From NCBI RefSeq assembly GCF_024700885.2, contig NZ_CP117016.1: a stretch of 64,000 nucleotides of DNA. The stretch is one strand, 5' to 3'. The stretch's first letter is position 1; each line of letters opens with the position of its first letter. This document shows, piece by piece, positions 2,154 through 34,997 of this stretch. Below the pieces are notes generated by a model. That model did no database searches. It had not been told where the DNA came from and saw only the letters and a list, made by a program, of their open reading frames with translations. This stretch comes from Escherichia coli. Its GTDB lineage: Bacteria; Pseudomonadota; Gammaproteobacteria; Enterobacterales; Enterobacteriaceae. A program made the position numbers and the translations under genes.

Positions 2154-3383
2154 ATGTCTAATATTTGGTCAAAAGAAGAAACTCTGTGGAGTTTCGCGCT
2201 CTACGGCACAGCCGTTGGTGCAGGCACGCTCTTCCTTCCTATTCAGTTAGGTTCGGCAGGGGCTGTGGTCCTGTTTATTACTGCTCTGGTCGCCTGGCCT
2301 TTAACATATTGGCCACATAAAGCCTTATGCCAGTTCATCCTCTCATCAAAAACATCAGCAGGTGAAGGGATAACGGGCGCGGTAACACACTACTATGGCA
2401 AGAAGATTGGTAATCTGATTACCACGCTGTACTTCATCGCCTTTTTTGTCGTCGTGTTGATATATGCCGTGGCAATTACCAACTCACTTACGGAACAGCT
2501 GGCAAAGCATATGGTTATTGATCTTCGCATCCGTATGTTGGTGAGTCTGGGTGTTGTATTAATCCTGAATCTCATTTTTCTAATGGGACGCCATGCCACT
2601 ATTCGGGTAATGGGATTTTTGGTATTCCCATTGATTGCCTATTTCTTATTTCTTTCTATTTACCTGGTCGGTAGTTGGCAACCTGATCTATTAACTACCC
2701 AGGTAGAGTTCAATCAGAATACCCTTCACCAGATATGGATATCGATTCCCGTGATGGTTTTCGCCTTTAGCCATACGCCCATTATTTCTACGTTTGCCAT
2801 AGACAGACGTGAAAAATATGGCGAACATGCTATGGATAAATGCAAAAAAATTATGAAAGTCGCTTATCTCATCATCTGCATAAGTGTACTGTTCTTTGTC
2901 TTTAGCTGCCTGCTTTCTATTCCACCTTCGTATATTGAAGCGGCTAAAGAAGAAGGGGTTACCATTTTATCGGCGCTTTCTATGCTGCCGAACGCCCCAG
3001 CATGGTTGTCAATTTCCGGGATTATTGTCGCAGTCGTTGCGATGTCGAAATCATTCCTGGGTACGTACTTTGGCGTTATTGAAGGTGCCACGGAGGTCGT
3101 CAAAACAACACTGCAGCAGGTTGGTGTAAAGAAAAGTCGTGCATTTAACCGCGCACTATCAATTATGTTGGTATCGCTGATTACCTTCATTGTTTGTTGC
3201 ATTAACCCGAACGCGATATCGATGATTTACGCGATCAGCGGCCCGCTCATTGCCATGATACTTTTCATCATGCCTACGCTGTCAACATATCTCATCCCGG
3301 CGCTTAAACCCTGGCGTTCCATCGGAAATCTGATTACGCTGATCGTGGGTGTCCTGTGCGTATCGGTAATGTTCTTTAGCTAA
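2154..3383 (+). CDS. yqeG: multi-pass membrane transporter (amino-acid permease-like)
   Basis: 409-aa highly hydrophobic ORF with many predicted transmembrane segments; position after yqeF matches K-12 order. Confidence 0.85.
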   Translation: MSNIWSKEETLWSFALYGTAVGAGTLFLPIQLGSAGAVVLFITALVAWPLTYWPHKALCQFILSSKTSAGEGITGAVTHYYGKKIGNLITTLYFIAFFVVVLIYAVAITNSLTEQLAKHMVIDLRIRMLVSLGVVLILNLIFLMGRHATIRVMGFLVFPLIAYFLFLSIYLVGSWQPDLLTTQVEFNQNTLHQIWISIPVMVFAFSHTPIISTFAIDRREKYGEHAMDKCKKIMKVAYLIICISVLFFVFSCLLSIPPSYIEAAKEEGVTILSALSMLPNAPAWLSISGIIVAVVAMSKSFLGTYFGVIEGATEVVKTTLQQVGVKKSRAFNRALSIMLVSLITFIVCCINPNAISMIYAISGPLIAMILFIMPTLSTYLIPALKPWRSIGNLITLIVGVLCVSVMFFS

Positions 3384-3393
3384 TATCCATTGT

Positions 3394-3436
3394 GAATGGT
3401 TCAAAATTGCTACAATTTTGAACCATTCCAGTTTTC
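3394..3436 (+). terminator. rho-independent terminator after yqeG
   Basis: Perfect 16-bp inverted repeat GAATGGTTCAAAATTG / CAATTTTGAACCATTC with a 3-nt loop, followed by a T-rich tract. Confidence 0.6.
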
Positions 3437-3842
3437 ATAATGTTCATTTGTTATAATTCCGCTCTATCACTTCTCTCGTCATATCCTAGTATTATCAGTT
3501 AGTTAAACACACAAAGAGATCTGAACATCTTAAATAAGACTATTTAAGATGCATAACTTAGATTCGCAAGATATCTTCTGGTCATTCAAAAACAATTTGC
3601 GATATAGATATTCTCATACCATGAGATAGTTATCTGAACCACCATCAACCAGGTAAGATTAAATCAGTGAAACATAATCATATTTAATAACGAGAAATGC
3701 ATTTTTAAATGCTTTACTCAGAATTATAGCAAATACAGATTAATCGCAATTTTTCCCAGCAAAATTACAAAATCATGGTGTATTGACATCATCAATAACC
3801 AATGAAATTATGCAATTATATACGGATAGGGAGGTTCTTAAC

Positions 3843-4475
3843 ATGGGGCTTTGTAGTCGTTATAAAAGTCTTACATGCAATAGTTGCTCAATGCATTGCC
3901 AAATAATGCCAGAAGAGTCACCGCGTTTGCAGTATTGCGCAAACTCGTGTTTTTGTATGTGGCCCGAAGAAAGTTCATATTTTAATCGTGGTGTGGTGGA
4001 AGGTATCTTAACAAAAAACCACAATGCGAGATTAAGCGGATATATTTTTGTCGATTTTTCAGTAAGTTTTTTACGTCTATTCCTTGAAAAAGACTGGATT
4101 GACTATCTTGCAAGTACTGACATGGGGATTGTTTTAGTCAGCGACCGAAATATGCAATCGTTAGCTAACTACTGGCGAAAACACAACTCTGCAATATCTG
4201 CTGTCATATATAATGATGATGGTCTTGATGTTGCCAATGAAAAGATCAGACAACTATTTATTGGTCGTTATTTATCATTTACCAGAGGGAACACATTAAC
4301 TCAGATGGAATTCACCATAATGGGATATATGGTTTCTGGTTATAATCCATATCAGATTGCTGAAGTTCTGGATATGGATATCCGTAGCATCTACGCGTAC
4401 AAGCAACGAATCGAAAAGAGAATGGGTGGTAAAATAAACGAGTTATTTATTCGTTCACATTCGGTCCAACATTGA
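3843..4475 (+). CDS. yqeH: LuxR-family transcriptional regulator (ETT2-island remnant)
   Basis: ORF-track ORF 3783..4475 begins at TTG; the ATG at 3843 (MGLCSRYKSL...) gives 210 aa; C-terminal helix-turn-helix region of LuxR/GerE type (NTLTQMEFTIMGYMVSGYNPYQIAEVLDMDIRSIYAYKQRIEKRM); AT-rich codon usage. Confidence 0.8.
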   Translation: MGLCSRYKSLTCNSCSMHCQIMPEESPRLQYCANSCFCMWPEESSYFNRGVVEGILTKNHNARLSGYIFVDFSVSFLRLFLEKDWIDYLASTDMGIVLVSDRNMQSLANYWRKHNSAISAVIYNDDGLDVANEKIRQLFIGRYLSFTRGNTLTQMEFTIMGYMVSGYNPYQIAEVLDMDIRSIYAYKQRIEKRMGGKINELFIRSHSVQH

Positions 4476-4508
4476 TACTCAATAATCTGCCAGAATCATA
4501 CTCTGCTT

Positions 4509-4540
4509 ATACGGGCATCTATTGAAATGCCCGTATTTTA
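4509..4540 (+). terminator. rho-independent terminator after yqeH
   Basis: 10-bp perfect stem ATACGGGCAT / ATGCCCGTAT with an 8-nt loop, followed by TTTTAC. Confidence 0.6.
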
Positions 4541-4688
4541 CAAATAAGCAGTACCCCCAAGAGTAAACAACATGGTATTTAAAACCATCACACGAAAAAT
4601 TCAGAAGCATTACGAAATATGAATTTACAAACAGGTGATGCTGCCAACTTACTGATTTAGTGTATGATGGTGTTTTTGAGGTGCTCCA

Positions 4689-4964
4689 GTGGCTTCTGTT
4701 TCTATCAGCTGTCCCTCCTGTTCAGCTACTGACGGGGTGGTGCGTAACGGCAAAAGCACCGCCGGACATCAGCGCTATCTCTGCTCTCACTGCCGTAAAA
4801 CATGGCAACTGCAGTTCACTTACACCGCTTCTCAACCCGGTACGCACCAGAAAATCATTGATATGGCCATGAATGGCGTTGGATGCCGGGCAACTGCCCG
4901 CATTATGGGCGTTGGCCTCAACACGATTTTACGTCACTTAAAAAACTCAGGCCGCAGTCGGTAA
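4689..4964 (+). CDS. insA: IS1 InsA (transposition repressor)
   Basis: 91-aa [40 protein letters not shown]... recognised as IS1 InsA; GTG start. Confidence 0.95.
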
Positions 4965-5386
4965 CCTCGCGCATACAGCCGGGCAGTGACGTCATCGTCT
5001 GCGCGGAAATGGACGAACAGTGGGGCTATGTCGGGGCTAAATCGCGCCAGCGCTGGCTGTTTTACGCGTATGACAGTCTCCGGAAGACGGTTGTTGCGCA
5101 CGTATTCGGTGAACGCACTATGGCGACGCTGGGGCGTCTTATGAGCCTGCTGTCACCCTTTGACGTGGTGATATGGATGACGGATGGCTGGCCGCTGTAT
5201 GAATCCCGCCTGAAGGGAAAGCTGCACGTAATCAGCAAGCGATATACGCAGCGAATTGAGCGGCATAACCTGAATCTGAGGCAGCACCTGGCACGGCTGG
5301 GACGGAAGTCGCTGTCGTTCTCAAAATCGGTGGAGCTGCATGACAAAGTCATCGGGCATTATCTGAACATAAAACACTATCAATAA
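4883..5386 (+). CDS. insB: IS1 InsB frame; the transposase InsAB' is made by a -1 frameshift at the TTAAAAAACTC motif near 4936-4946
   Basis: 167-aa ORF matching InsB; A6C slippery motif present in the insA/insB overlap. Confidence 0.9.
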
Positions 5387-10626: not shown

Positions 10627-10650
10627 TATCCGGCCTGAATTCAGGCCGGA
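10627..10650. terminator. bidirectional terminator-like perfect palindrome between convergent xdhC and ygeV
   Basis: ATCCGGCCTGAATTCAGGCCGGAT is a perfect 24-bp palindrome. Confidence 0.5.
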
Positions 10651-10660
10651 TTCACTGAGG

Positions 10661-12765: not shown

Positions 12766-12808
12766 CATTACCCGTCAAATTAGTCTTTTGCAGCCGCTTG
12801 GATAATTC

Positions 12809-12823
12809 TGGCATAGTTATTGT
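12809..12823 (+). promoter_or_regulatory. candidate sigma54 -24/-12 element TGGCATAGTTATTGT upstream of ygeW
   Basis: GG at -24 spacing and TTGT in place of TTGC; about 90 bp upstream of the ygeW start. Confidence 0.3.
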
Positions 12824-12915
12824 TAGTCCCAGGTATAGCTGTGAAAAGACCAATCACTTTTGGCAAGTCACAGTGAAATAAACCTCTTTGCCTGTCATTC
12901 CACTACCGGGACTTT

Positions 12916-14106: not shown

Positions 14107-14163
14107 CCCCTCGGGCCGATCAGCTGGTCGGCCCTCTATTTCCAGAGGCCAAAAGGATAGGAT

Positions 14164-15360: not shown

Positions 15361-15417
15361 TCACCCTATTGGAACTGCTCCCTGCAAAACGGGGAGTAAA
15401 AAATCTGGAGAAAAATA

Positions 15418-16629
15418 ATGGCTAAGAATATTCCATTCAAACTGATTCTTGAAAAAGCAAAAGATTACCAGGCGGACATGACTCGCTTCCTGCGCGACAT
15501 GGTTGCTATTCCCAGTGAAAGCTGCGACGAAAAACGCGTAGTACATCGTATTAAAGAAGAGATGGAAAAAGTCGGCTTCGATAAAGTTGAAATCGACCCG
15601 ATGGGCAACGTTCTCGGTTATATCGGCCACGGCCCGCGTCTGGTGGCAATGGACGCTCATATTGATACCGTCGGCATTGGCAACATCAAAAACTGGGACT
15701 TCGATCCGTACGAAGGCATGGAAACTGATGAGCTGATCGGTGGTCGCGGTACTTCCGACCAGGAAGGCGGCATGGCATCTATGGTTTATGCCGGTAAAAT
15801 CATTAAAGACCTCGGTCTGGAAGATGAATATACCCTGCTGGTTACCGGTACTGTGCAGGAAGAAGACTGCGACGGTCTGTGCTGGCAGTACATTATTGAA
15901 CAATCCGGCATTCGCCCGGAATTTGTGGTCAGTACCGAACCAACCGACTGCCAGGTATACCGTGGTCAGCGCGGTCGTATGGAAATTCGTATTGATGTTC
16001 AGGGTGTTAGCTGCCACGGTTCTGCGCCAGAACGCGGTGACAACGCCATTTTCAAAATGGGTCCGATTCTTGGCGAATTACAAGAACTCTCCCAACGTCT
16101 GGGTTATGACGAATTCCTCGGCAAAGGCACCCTCACCGTTTCTGAAATCTTCTTCACATCCCCAAGCCGTTGCGCTGTAGCAGATAGCTGCGCCGTCTCT
16201 ATTGACCGCCGTCTGACCTGGGGCGAAACCTGGGAAGGCGCGCTGGACGAAATCCGCGCCCTGCCTGCAGTACAGAAAGCTAACGCGGTTGTTTCTATGT
16301 ACAACTACGACCGTCCGTCCTGGACTGGCCTGGTTTACCCAACCGAATGCTACTTCCCGACCTGGAAAGTGGAAGAAGATCACTTCACCGTTAAAGCACT
16401 GGTGAATGCCTACGAAGGTCTGTTTGGCAAAGCGCCGGTTGTTGATAAGTGGACCTTCTCAACTAACGGCGTATCTATCATGGGCCGTCACGGCATTCCG
16501 GTGATCGGCTTTGGCCCAGGTAAAGAACCTGAAGCGCATGCACCTAACGAAAAAACCTGGAAATCTCACCTGGTGACCTGTGCCGCGATGTACGCGGCAA
16601 TCCCGTTAAGCTGGCTGGCAACCGAATAA
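15418..16629 (+). CDS. ygeY: M20-family metallopeptidase / amidohydrolase
   Basis: 403-aa ORF; position between ygeX and hyuA matches K-12 order; M20 (ArgE/DapE) family assignment is from memory, no specific motif checked. Confidence 0.85.
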
Positions 16630-16646
16630 TTACTCTTCACTTATTC

Positions 16647-16671
16647 CCCTCCGGTTCGCCGGAGGGTTTTT
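16647..16671 (+). terminator. intrinsic terminator-like hairpin between ygeY and hyuA
   Basis: CCCTCCGG-TTCG-CCGGAGGG stem-loop followed by TTTTT, ending 11 nt before the hyuA start. Confidence 0.5.
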
Positions 16672-16681
16672 GGAGTTTGCT

Positions 16682-18067
16682 ATGCGCGTATTGATCAAAA
16701 ACGGCACTGTCGTTAACGCAGATGGACAAGCCAAACAGGATTTGCTGATTGAAAGCGGGATTGTTCGCCAGTTGGGCAACAATATTTCGCCACAGCTCCC
16801 GTATGAAGAAATTGATGCCACTGGCTGTTACGTTTTCCCTGGCGGCGTGGATGTCCATACGCATTTCAATATTGATGTCGGCATCGCGCGCAGTTGTGAT
16901 GATTTTTTTACCGGTACCCGCGCAGCTGCGTGTGGCGGTACAACAACCATTATTGACCATATGGGATTTGGCCCGAATGGCTGCCGGTTACGCCATCAAC
17001 TGGAGGTTTATCGTGGTTATGCCGCCCATAAGGCGGTCATCGACTACAGCTTTCACGGTGTGATCCAGCACATTAATCACGCCATCCTCGACGAAATTCC
17101 GATGATGGTCGAAGAAGGACTGAGCAGTTTTAAACTCTATTTAACCTATCAATACAAACTCAACGATGACGAAGTTTTGCAGGCGTTACGCCGCTTGCAT
17201 GAGTCCGGCGCGCTGACCACCGTGCACCCGGAAAATGATGCAGCTATCGCCAGCAAGCGGGCGGAGTTTATTGCCGCAGGGTTAACCGCGCCGCGCTATC
17301 ACGCCTTGAGTCGCCCTCTGGAATGCGAAGCGGAAGCCATCGCCCGCATGATTAACCTGGCACAAATTGCCGGTAACGCCCCGCTCTATATCGTGCACCT
17401 GTCTAACGGCTTAGGTCTGGATTATCTGCGTCTTGCCCGTGCGAATCACCAGCCAGTCTGGGTTGAAACCTGCCCACAATATCTCCTGTTGGACGAACGC
17501 AGTTACGATACAGAAGATGGCATGAAGTTCATTCTTAGCCCACCGCTGCGTAACGTACGCGAGCAGGACAAACTGTGGTGTGGCATCAGCGATGGTGCGA
17601 TTGACGTGGTAGCGACCGATCACTGCACATTCTCGATGGCTCAACGCCTGCAAATTTCTAAAGGCGATTTCAGTCGCTGCCCAAATGGCTTACCCGGTGT
17701 GGAAAACCGCATGCAGTTACTGTTTTCCAGTGGCGTTATGACGGGACGTATAACACCGGAACGTTTTGTTGAATTAACCAGCGCGATGCCCGCCAGGCTG
17801 TTTGGCCTGTGGCCGCAAAAAGGATTATTAGCGCCCGGTTCCGATGGCGACGTGGTGATTATCGACCCACGTCAGAGTCAACAAATTCAGCATCGCCATC
17901 TCCACGACAACGCCGACTACTCGCCATGGGAGGGTTTTACCTGTCAGGGCGCGATTGTCAGAACTTTATCCCGTGGTGAAACGATTTTCTGTGACGGCAC
18001 TTTTACAGGCAAAGCCGGGCGAGGTCGTTTCCTGCGACGCAAACCGTTTGTCCCTCCCGTGCTCTAA
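16682..18067 (+). CDS. hyuA: D-phenylhydantoinase (cyclic amidohydrolase)
   Basis: 461 aa from the ATG at 16682 (MRVLIKNGTVV...); metal-binding HTHF motif; ORF-track start at 16670 is TTG. Confidence 0.85.
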   Translation: MRVLIKNGTVVNADGQAKQDLLIESGIVRQLGNNISPQLPYEEIDATGCYVFPGGVDVHTHFNIDVGIARSCDDFFTGTRAAACGGTTTIIDHMGFGPNGCRLRHQLEVYRGYAAHKAVIDYSFHGVIQHINHAILDEIPMMVEEGLSSFKLYLTYQYKLNDDEVLQALRRLHESGALTTVHPENDAAIASKRAEFIAAGLTAPRYHALSRPLECEAEAIARMINLAQIAGNAPLYIVHLSNGLGLDYLRLARANHQPVWVETCPQYLLLDERSYDTEDGMKFILSPPLRNVREQDKLWCGISDGAIDVVATDHCTFSMAQRLQISKGDFSRCPNGLPGVENRMQLLFSSGVMTGRITPERFVELTSAMPARLFGLWPQKGLLAPGSDGDVVIIDPRQSQQIQHRHLHDNADYSPWEGFTCQGAIVRTLSRGETIFCDGTFTGKAGRGRFLRRKPFVPPVL

Positions 18068-19050: not shown

Positions 19051-19084
19051 AAAGGCCGGGTGGGTAATACCATCCGGCCATTTT
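19051..19084. terminator. bidirectional terminator between convergent yqeA and yqeB
   Basis: GGCCGG...CCGGCC stem flanked by A-run and T-run. Confidence 0.5.
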
Positions 19085-26963: not shown

Positions 26964-27013
26964 ATGACAAATACCCTCTTCCCGTAGGGAAGAGGGTTAA
27001 ATAAGGAAAGAAG

Positions 27014-34965: not shown

Positions 34966-34997
34966 ATTCTCCGCGCCTTTCAGCGCGGAGATTTCTT
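34966..34997 (+). terminator. terminator after ghxQ
   Basis: TCTCCGCGC-CTTTCA-GCGCGGAGA hairpin followed by TTTCTTTC. Confidence 0.55.

What the first reader, a model, noticed from the sequence alone, without database searches (positions are those of the whole stretch)
16647..16671. Intrinsic terminator-like hairpin inside the putative operon, overlapping the hyuA ribosome-binding region
CCCTCCGG-TTCG-CCGGAGGG followed by TTTTT ends 11 nt before the hyuA ATG, and the hyuA Shine-Dalgarno (TGGAG) lies in the T-tract region. It could attenuate read-through from ygeY or sequester the ribosome-binding region.
Basis: seen in the sequence. Interest (0 to 1): 0.35.

Follow-up and report, generated by a model that had tools for sequence, protein, structure and literature searches.

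The report
Terminator-like hairpin between ygeY and hyuA
A stable RNA hairpin followed by five U's sits between two genes of the E. coli urate-breakdown operon; the hairpin is real and conserved across about 70 species, but it is an ordinary kind of intercistronic element, most likely a leaky terminator and RNA-end protector, and it does not mask the ribosome-binding site.

Summary
CCCTCCGG-TTCG-CCGGAGGG (16647-16666) plus T5 (16667-16671) lies in the 52-nt ygeY-hyuA spacer, directly before the hyuA SD (GGAG, 16672-16675) and ATG (16682). The window is E. coli. The hairpin is single-copy, present in 5163 of 5426 complete genomes, and in the five sequence variants read it differs only in the loop or the upstream spacer. 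A motif this strict occurs 3 times in the window against 0.03 expected; the other two lie just past the 3' ends of ygeV and ghxQ.

Across 76 species with the same gene order, 69 carry a hairpin of -15 kcal/mol or better at this junction. Stem sequences differ with compensatory changes. In 24 Enterobacteriaceae the stem ends 12-16 nt before the start codon. The U-tract is not conserved: only 5 of 39 species with a start-proximal hairpin have a run of four or more T directly after the stem.

The SD is not sequestered, and no alternative (antiterminator) pairing exists. No separate hyuA promoter was found.

Best reading: a constitutive intercistronic hairpin that in E. coli acts as a partial intrinsic terminator and 3'-end protector for ygeWXY mRNA, with read-through supplying hyuA-yqeA. 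No transcript 3'-end data were found. This is an ordinary kind of element, of low interest.

The parts
16627..16629 (+). ygeY stop codon TAA
   Evidence: RefSeq ygeY CDS end.
16630..16646 (+). 17-nt pyrimidine/AU-rich spacer (TTACTCTTCACTTATTC), unpaired in the centroid fold. It is long enough that a ribosome stopping at the ygeY stop codon should not cover the stem. It is a possible RNase E entry site; that is inference only.
   Evidence: The stop-to-hairpin distance is 8-18 nt in relatives.
16647..16666 (+). Hairpin: 8-bp stem CCCTCCGG/CCGGAGGG (7 G-C pairs), loop TTCG, -16.6 kcal/mol
   Evidence: The stem was invariant in the five E. coli variants read. Covariation in 24 Enterobacteriaceae.
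16667..16671 (+). U5 tract directly after the stem. Together with the hairpin it makes the intrinsic-terminator motif. A 3' end would be expected at about 16669-16673.
   Evidence: Not conserved outside E. coli, Morganella and a few others.
16672..16675 (+). hyuA Shine-Dalgarno GGAG, 6 nt before the ATG. It lies outside the hairpin.
16682..18067 (+). hyuA coding sequence (D-phenylhydantoinase), ATG at 16682
12808..12824 (+). Sigma-54 promoter-like CTGGCATAGTTATTGTT upstream of ygeW. It is the presumed start of the transcript that reaches the hairpin.
   Evidence: MG1655 has CTGGCACACTTATTGTT, bound by sigma-54 in ChIP, 80 nt upstream of ygeW (PMC4591121).
19054..19079 (+). Hairpin after yqeA (-22.6 kcal/mol, tail ATTTTCATTT), between convergent yqeA and yqeB. 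It is the presumed end of read-through transcripts.
14113..14134 (+). ygeW|ygeX intercistronic hairpin (GGGCCGATC-AGCT-GGTCGGCCC) with a poor U-tract. It has the same architecture.
   Evidence: A hairpin of -12 kcal/mol or better occurs at this junction in 65 of 70 species.
15376..15398 (+). ygeX|ygeY intercistronic hairpin (-14 kcal/mol), followed by A6 and the ygeY SD
   Evidence: Less conserved: 38 of 73 species.

Best explanation
This is a constitutive intercistronic RNA hairpin that marks the boundary between a ygeW-ygeX-ygeY segment and a hyuA-yqeA segment of one sigma-54/YgeV-driven transcript.

In E. coli the hairpin is followed by U5, so it most likely works as a partial (leaky) Rho-independent terminator. 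Some polymerases would release at about 16669-16673, giving a ygeWXY mRNA whose 3' end is capped by the hairpin. The rest would read through to make hyuA-yqeA and end at the 19054-19079 hairpin. On read-through transcripts the same hairpin would block 3'-to-5' exonucleases after any cleavage downstream. Both routes predict more ygeWXY than hyuA-yqeA mRNA. The hairpin leaves the hyuA SD free.

Shown here: the motif, its stability, its single-copy status, its structural conservation, the free SD, and the absence of a competing structure. Inferred, not shown: termination itself, its efficiency, and any effect on decay.
For: - Motif and stability.
- A strict motif occurs 3 times in the window against 0.03 expected. 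The other two sites lie just past the 3' ends of ygeV and ghxQ.
- It is single-copy in 5163 of 5426 E. coli genomes. The variants read differ only in the loop (TTCG/TTCA/TTTA) or the upstream spacer, while the flanking coding DNA differs by up to about 6%.
- 69 of 76 species have a junction hairpin of -15 kcal/mol or better. The median folding z-score is -2.45 here against -0.14 at hyuA|yqeA.
- Covariation: 6 of 9 pairs change on both sides, and 0 of 500 shuffles reach the observed values. U-G pairs outnumber C-A at one stem position, 5 to 2, which hints that the sense-strand RNA is the folded molecule.
- No promoter-like site was found for hyuA: no sigma-70-like hit on the + strand between 15800 and 18593, and no sigma-54-like hit in the 3' part of ygeY. 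Only 5 nt separate the stem from the SD.
- hyuA is nevertheless listed with ygeW, ygeX and ygeY in the YgeV iModulon (PMC12133099). A ygeW-arcC deletion abolishes growth on urate (10.1101/2022.12.12.520169). Read-through must therefore occur.
- One source names the unit 'ygeWXY' (PMC10602906).
Against: - No experimental 3' end or coverage data exist for this junction in the sources I could search.
- The U-tract is only 5 nt and is followed by GGAG. There is no upstream A-tract.
- Among 39 species with a start-proximal hairpin, only 5 have a leading T run of four or more. Mixta and Erwinia place the SD directly after the stem. The conserved role therefore cannot be canonical termination, and the E. 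coli U5 could be incidental.
- Intercistronic hairpins without U-tracts are common in this window, for example ssnA|ygfM, ygeW|ygeX and gcvH|gcvP. Selection for a hairpin does not by itself imply termination.
Confidence: 0.5

Rival explanations
1. The hairpin acts only after transcription. It would be a decay barrier or processing landmark in a fully read-through polycistronic mRNA. It could be a malE-malF-type 3' protective structure for ygeWXY, a papA-type 5' stem-loop protecting hyuA-yqeA after RNase E cleavage in the AU-rich spacer, or both. Termination at U5 would be negligible.
For: - What is conserved is the hairpin, placed 0-9 nt before the SD, not the U-tract.
- Two other junctions of the same operon carry U-poor hairpins.
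- Protective hairpins in E. coli operons are reported as conserved in Salmonella and Enterobacter (PMC5927463).
- A 17-nt unpaired AU-rich spacer precedes the stem.
Against: - E. coli does have a U5 run, and the same strict motif elsewhere in the window lies just past gene 3' ends.
- No decay or RNase E cleavage data exist for this silent operon.
- No exact RN|WUU RNase E motif was seen in the spacer on reading the sequence.
Confidence: 0.27
2. The hairpin controls hyuA translation. It would act either by masking the ribosome-binding region or, conversely, by insulating the SD from upstream coding sequence or serving as a standby platform.
For: - The stem-to-SD spacing is tight and conserved: 0-9 nt, median 3-4, with the SD 5-9 nt from the start.
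- Native upstream spacers leave the SD more open than shuffled ones in 28 of 39 species. This fits insulation rather than masking.
Against: - The SD is outside the stem.
- In-silico deletion or scrambling of the hairpin changes predicted SD accessibility little, and in no consistent direction (0.21-0.57 depending on context).
- No conserved outer helix pairs with the SD.
Confidence: 0.08
3. The hairpin is a regulated attenuator. Termination would be switched by an alternative structure, a ligand, a protein or ygeY translation, as at the mccA-mccB terminator.
For: - It sits inside a tightly regulated, catabolite-repressed pathway operon.
- The stop-to-stem distance is 8-18 nt, so a ribosome at the ygeY stop could touch the 5' arm in some species.
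Against: - No Rfam match.
- Hairpin pair probability is 0.87 or higher in all contexts, and nothing within +/-300 nt resembles either arm.
- Stem sequence is not conserved between families, which argues against a sequence-specific protein or ligand pocket.
Confidence: 0.05
4. The hairpin is a relic with no present function. It would be a former transcription-unit terminator left behind when the spacer was compacted, or a hitch-hiking palindrome.
For: - In Vibrionaceae and Shewanella the same junction is 126-306 nt long. It has a terminator-like hairpin right after ygeY and room for a promoter.
- Hairpins in intergenic spacers are common.
Against: - The structure is kept across roughly 70 species while stem sequences turn over with compensatory changes.
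- Within E. coli the changes seen fall in the loop and the flank but not in the stem.
- The adjacent hyuA|yqeA spacer shows no such structure (z = -0.14).
Confidence: 0.1

Closest known systems
Internal (intra-operon) Rho-independent terminators that set the gene ratio, e.g. the mccA-mccB intergenic terminator of the microcin C operon (Zukher et al. 2014, PMC4231749)
   Same: A GC-rich hairpin plus U run in the spacer between two co-transcribed genes. It is predicted to give a short abundant upstream transcript and a minor read-through transcript. The hairpin also stabilises the short RNA.
   Different: Here termination is only predicted. The U-tract is short (5 nt) and is absent in most orthologous junctions. 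There is no sign of the upstream attenuating sequences or ribosome dependence described for mcc.
3' protective intercistronic hairpins of differential operon decay: malE-malF, puf, menBCE and others (Newbury 1987; Chen 1988; Dar and Sorek 2018, PMC5927463)
   Same: A stable stem-loop at the 3' edge of an upstream operon segment. It is conserved across Enterobacteriaceae, and several such hairpins occur in one operon.
   Different: The mal element is a repeated REP sequence, whereas this one is single-copy. Dar and Sorek excluded junctions carrying a hairpin-plus-U motif such as this one. No decay data exist here.
papB-papA type 5' stem-loop that protects the downstream cistron after RNase E cleavage (Bricker and Belasco 1999, cited in PMC5927463)
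   Same: A hairpin directly upstream of the downstream gene's ribosome-binding site, preceded by an unpaired AU-rich stretch.
   Different: No cleavage site has been mapped. Function as a 5' cap would need cleavage within a few nucleotides of 16647, which has not been shown.
REP/BIME repeated extragenic palindromes
   Same: A GC-rich palindrome in an intergenic spacer.
   Different: There is one copy per genome and no match elsewhere in E. coli. It is not a member of this family. By contrast, some Serratia orthologous spacers do carry long inserted palindromes that look REP-like; their copy number was not checked.

Membership tests
Rho-independent (intrinsic) terminator | GC-rich stem of about 5-14 bp with a 3-8 nt loop | tested here: met
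   8 bp, 7 of them G-C, loop 4, -16.6 kcal/mol.
Rho-independent (intrinsic) terminator | U-rich tract immediately 3' of the stem | tested here: met
   UUUUU at 16667-16671, then GGAGUUUG. This passes the criterion of 5 T in 8 but is short and interrupted by GGAG.
Rho-independent (intrinsic) terminator | RNA 3' ends generated at the U-tract in vivo or in vitro | not testable with these tools
   No entry for ygeW, ygeX, ygeY, hyuA or yqeA in the held supplements of Adams 2021 or Yan 2018. Other data sets were not held.
Rho-independent (intrinsic) terminator | Hairpin plus U-tract retained at the orthologous position | tested here: not met
   The hairpin is retained in 69 of 76 species. A leading T run of four or more occurs in only 5 of 39 start-proximal hairpins. 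As a control, hairpins after yqeA also often lack U-tracts (10 of 32 have at least 5 T in 8), so this test has limited weight.
Protective intercistronic hairpin (differential operon decay) | Stable structure at a cistron boundary, conserved in related genomes | tested here: met
Protective intercistronic hairpin (differential operon decay) | Upstream and downstream segments differ in half-life or abundance | not testable with these tools
   The operon is silent in standard conditions. RNA-seq of a promoter-replaced strain exists only as a figure (PMC12507026 Fig. S6).
REP/BIME repeat | Many dispersed copies per genome | tested here: not met
   One place per genome in 5163 genomes, blastn with 11-nt words at E up to 10.
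Riboswitch / attenuator with alternative structures | Match to a curated RNA family, or a competing antiterminator pairing | tested here: not met
   No relevant Rfam hit even at E up to 10. No sequence within +/-300 nt resembles either arm within one mismatch, and the hairpin probability is 0.87 or higher.
RBS-sequestering hairpin | SD or start codon paired within the structure | tested here: not met
   GGAG lies 5 nt 3' of the stem. Accessibility is not raised by removing the hairpin. There is no conserved outer helix.

The most novel reading that the evidence does not exclude
The ygeY|hyuA hairpin is a deliberately maintained module boundary that splits the anaerobic urate-degradation operon mRNA into ygeWXY and hyuA-yqeA parts. 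Lineages would tune the ratio by the number of U's between stem and SD: 0 in Mixta and Erwinia, 1-3 in most Enterobacteriaceae, 5-6 in E. coli and Morganella. This would shift the mechanism between pure decay barrier and partial termination while keeping the hairpin at a fixed distance from the ribosome-binding site.
Probability: 0.2. Interest if true: 0.35.

Novelty: new member of a known kind. Interest (0 to 1): 0.2.

Why it matters
The ygeW-yqeA genes are part of the gut-bacterial pathway that removes urate, which is relevant to gout. E. coli is being engineered to over-express them by replacing the promoter before ygeW (PMC12507026). If the hairpin terminates a substantial share of transcripts, hyuA and yqeA will lag behind ygeWXY in such strains, and removing or weakening it would be a simple improvement. 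It would also settle the inconsistent operon annotations in the literature ('ygeW', 'ygeWXY', 'ygeW-arcC'). Beyond that it is one more example of a common class of element.

Tried and rejected
- **REP or other repeat:** rejected; single copy.
- **Known RNA family:** none in the window region or in eight related loci.
- **Antiterminator or alternative fold:** none.
- **SD sequestration by the hairpin or by an outer helix:** my first 'best hairpin' search tended to extend stems onto the SD. A shuffle control showed this is not selected; if anything the trend is the opposite.
- **Separate hyuA promoter:** no sigma-70-like or sigma-54-like site in the 3' part of ygeY. The sigma-54 scan threshold was stricter than the known ygeW site (8 matches against a threshold of 9), so weak sites could be missed.
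- **Published 3'-end or transcription-unit data:** nothing for these genes in the Adams 2021 or Yan 2018 supplements. The Dar 2018 NAR, Conway 2014 and PRECISE-1K supplements are not held, and Ju 2019 is not held. The hairpin sequence occurs in no searchable paper.
- **RNA-seq of the promoter-replaced strain:** available only as an image.
- **U-tract control at the operon end:** inconclusive, because only 10 of 32 hairpins after yqeA have a U-tract.
- **Covariance model R1:** it found only the Enterobacteriaceae it was built from. Edwardsiella, Morganella, Erwinia and Aeromonas hairpins are too different in sequence, so covariation was counted only within that family.
- **Plain MAFFT alignment:** it put the E. 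coli, Atlantibacter and C. freundii stems one column out of register. The model-based alignment A5 was used instead, which leans towards the structure.

Full report
**What is there.** The window is Escherichia coli. It is 100% identical to strain 2012C-4221 over the 701 bases tested (window 16300-17000), and MG1655 carries the identical hairpin, T-run and SD. The finding lies in the 52-nt spacer between ygeY (stop TAA at 16627-16629) and hyuA (ATG at 16682). The order of elements is as follows:
- a 17-nt unpaired pyrimidine/AU-rich stretch;
- the hairpin CCCTCCGG-TTCG-CCGGAGGG at 16647-16666;
- TTTTT at 16667-16671;
- GGAG at 16672-16675;
- six nucleotides, then the ATG.

The only correction is that the SD core follows the T run rather than lying in it.

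**Is it more than chance?** The hairpin folds at -16.6 kcal/mol, z about -2.7. It forms with probability 0.87 or higher in every context tried, from 75 to 550 nt. The generic terminator scan is not enriched over shuffles. A strict version of the motif is: 8 or more perfect pairs, 7 or more G-C, loop 3-8, and 5 or more T in the next 8. It occurs three times in the window against 0.03 expected. The other two sites lie just past the 3' ends of ygeV and ghxQ. In this window, at least, the strict motif marks gene ends.

**Within E. coli.** The 50 nt around the hairpin occur once per genome in 5163 of 5426 complete genomes, so it is not a REP-type repeat. 4212 copies are identical to the window. In the lineages whose flanking coding DNA is about 6% diverged, and in the most divergent copies I fetched, the changes fall in three places: the loop (TTCG, TTCA, TTTA), an extra C before the stem, and the upstream spacer. 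The stem, T5, SD and SD-to-ATG spacer are unchanged. This rests on five sequences read in full, so it is suggestive only.

**Across species.** A genome scan with YgeY returned 80 species: Enterobacterales, Aeromonas, Vibrionaceae, Shewanella and some beta-proteobacteria. Nearly all have the order ygeW-ygeX-ygeY-hyuA-yqeA.
- Of 76 ygeY|hyuA junctions, 69 contain a simple hairpin of -15 kcal/mol or better.
- Folding z-scores against dinucleotide shuffles have a median of -2.45 at this junction. The medians are -1.8 at ygeW|ygeX, -0.8 at ygeX|ygeY and -0.14 at hyuA|yqeA.
- In the 24 Enterobacteriaceae-type junctions the core stem is 8-12 bp. It starts 8-17 nt after the stop codon and ends 12-16 nt before the start codon.
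- Stem sequences differ between genera. Examples are CCCTCCGG, TCCCCCGG, CTCCCGTCG, TCCCGCCGC, ACGCCCGCCGC and CCTCTCCGGC. In other families they include CCCCGGCAC, GCCCCGTAC, GGGGCGCC and TCGGCGCTC.
- On a model-based alignment of the 24, six of nine pairs show changes on both sides. None of 500 column shuffles reaches the observed values, and the structure beats all slid registers. That alignment is fitted to the structure, so the count leans its way. The per-species folds are independent of any alignment.
- Wobble pairs favour the sense strand: U-G 5 against C-A 2 at one position.

**What is not conserved.** The U-tract varies. Among 39 species with a start-proximal hairpin, only five have four or more T directly after the stem: E. 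coli, one 'Serratia silvae' contig and three Morganella.
- Serratia sp. Ag1, Enterobacillus and Hafnia have T5-6 after one to three other bases or further from the start codon.
- Most Enterobacteriaceae have TCT, TTCT or TATT and then the SD.
- Mixta and Erwinia have the SD abutting the stem.
- Hairpins after yqeA, at the end of the operon, also often lack U-tracts (10 of 32 have at least 5 T in 8). Absence of U's is therefore weak evidence against termination in those genomes.
- In Vibrionaceae and Shewanella the spacer is 126-306 nt. It has a terminator-like hairpin right after ygeY and room for a promoter, so the junction looks like a transcription-unit boundary there.

- *Attenuation.* The motif fits. 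However, there is no alternative pairing for either arm within +/-300 nt and no Rfam hit. Any termination would be constitutive and partial rather than switched.
- *RBS sequestration.* GGAG is outside the stem. Predicted SD accessibility depends on context (0.21-0.57) and is not raised by deleting or scrambling the hairpin. Shuffling the upstream spacer makes the SD less accessible than the native sequence in 28 of 39 species. This is the opposite of a selected masking helix.

**Must there be read-through?** I found no promoter-like site for hyuA. There is no sigma-70-like hit on the + strand between 15800 and 18593, and no sigma-54-like hit in the 3' part of ygeY. The stem is 5 nt from the SD. 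A sigma-54 site upstream of ygeW is documented (PMC4591121); the window carries CTGGCATAGTTATTGTT at 12808-12824. hyuA is listed with ygeW, ygeX and ygeY in the YgeV iModulon (PMC12133099). Deletion of ygeW-arcC abolishes anaerobic growth on urate (10.1101/2022.12.12.520169). HyuA acts in the same pathway (PMC12507026). Sources disagree on the unit: 'ygeW' (PMC8743547), 'ygeWXY' (PMC10602906) and 'ygeW-dpaL-ygeY-hydA-arcC'. A leaky terminator after ygeY would account for that disagreement.

**Conclusion.** The hairpin is real, under structural selection, and of a familiar kind. For E. coli I rank the readings as follows:
- partial intrinsic terminator that also caps the ygeWXY 3' end: 0.5;
- purely post-transcriptional stability or processing hairpin: 0.27;
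- relic without present function: 0.1;
- translational role: 0.08;
- regulated attenuator: 0.05.

Intercistronic hairpins are frequent in this very window: ygeW|ygeX, ygeX|ygeY, ssnA|ygfM, gcvH|gcvP and recJ|prfB. The closest described systems are internal operon terminators such as mccA-mccB (PMC4231749) and protective hairpins of differential operon decay (PMC5927463). No transcript-level data for this junction were found. The decisive experiments are simple and are listed under next steps.

Noticed in passing
window 14113-14134 (+): The ygeW|ygeX spacer carries a 9-bp GC-rich hairpin (-20.5 kcal/mol with its outer extension) and a poor U-tract (TCTATTTCC). A hairpin of -12 kcal/mol or better is present at this junction in 65 of 70 species.
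   Followed up: partly
window 15376-15398 (+): The ygeX|ygeY spacer has a 9-bp hairpin (-14 kcal/mol, z = -4.2) followed by A6 and then the ygeY SD. There is no U-tract at all, and it is conserved in only about half of the species.
   Followed up: partly
window 26964-27013 (- strand): The ssnA|ygfM spacer has the same architecture as the finding. The hairpin ACCCTCTTCCC-GTA-GGGAAGAGGGT (-19.4 kcal/mol) ends 16 nt before the ygfM start and has no U-tract.
   Followed up: no
window 12808-12824 (+): The sigma-54 promoter-like site upstream of ygeW reads CTGGCATAGTTATTGTT here. The ChIP-mapped MG1655 site is CTGGCACACTTATTGTT, so there are two differences between strains, one of them in the TGGCAC (-24) element.
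   Followed up: partly
window 10628-10651 (-) and 34968-34991 (+): These are the only other strict hairpin-plus-T motifs in the window. They lie directly after ygeV and after ghxQ and look like ordinary terminators.
   Followed up: partly
L004 (E. coli VTB96816v) 2338-5138: This strain has a deletion fusing dpaL to hyuA. It removes ygeY and the hairpin, and arcC (yqeA) is also frameshifted, so the operon is decaying. About 260 of 5426 E. coli genomes lack the junction altogether.
   Followed up: no
L068, L072, L073, L076, L081, L083 (Photobacterium) about 5250-5320; L074 and L077 further into the spacer; related in L075, L082, L085 (Vibrio): The 196-306-nt ygeY|hyuA spacers of Vibrionaceae share a long conserved hairpin (CCGTCCCGAGGG...CCCCCTCGGGATGG followed by ATTTTC), and some also carry a second near-perfect 40-nt palindrome. 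There is no Rfam match at gathering threshold. The nature of these elements is unknown.
   Followed up: partly
L041 5218-5354, L045 5218-5582, L047 5218-5549 (Serratia): The same spacer is expanded to 135-363 nt by long GC-rich palindromes (such as CCCCTCACCCCACCCCTCTCCCACAGGGAGAGGGGTGGGGTGAG) that look like REP-type insertions. Their copy number was not checked.
   Followed up: no
L059, L078, L080 (beta-proteobacterial MAGs): ygeY is followed by yqeA within 30-300 nt, with no hyuA between them and no ygeX match in the locus, so the ygeY 3' boundary is a point of gene-order change.
   Followed up: no
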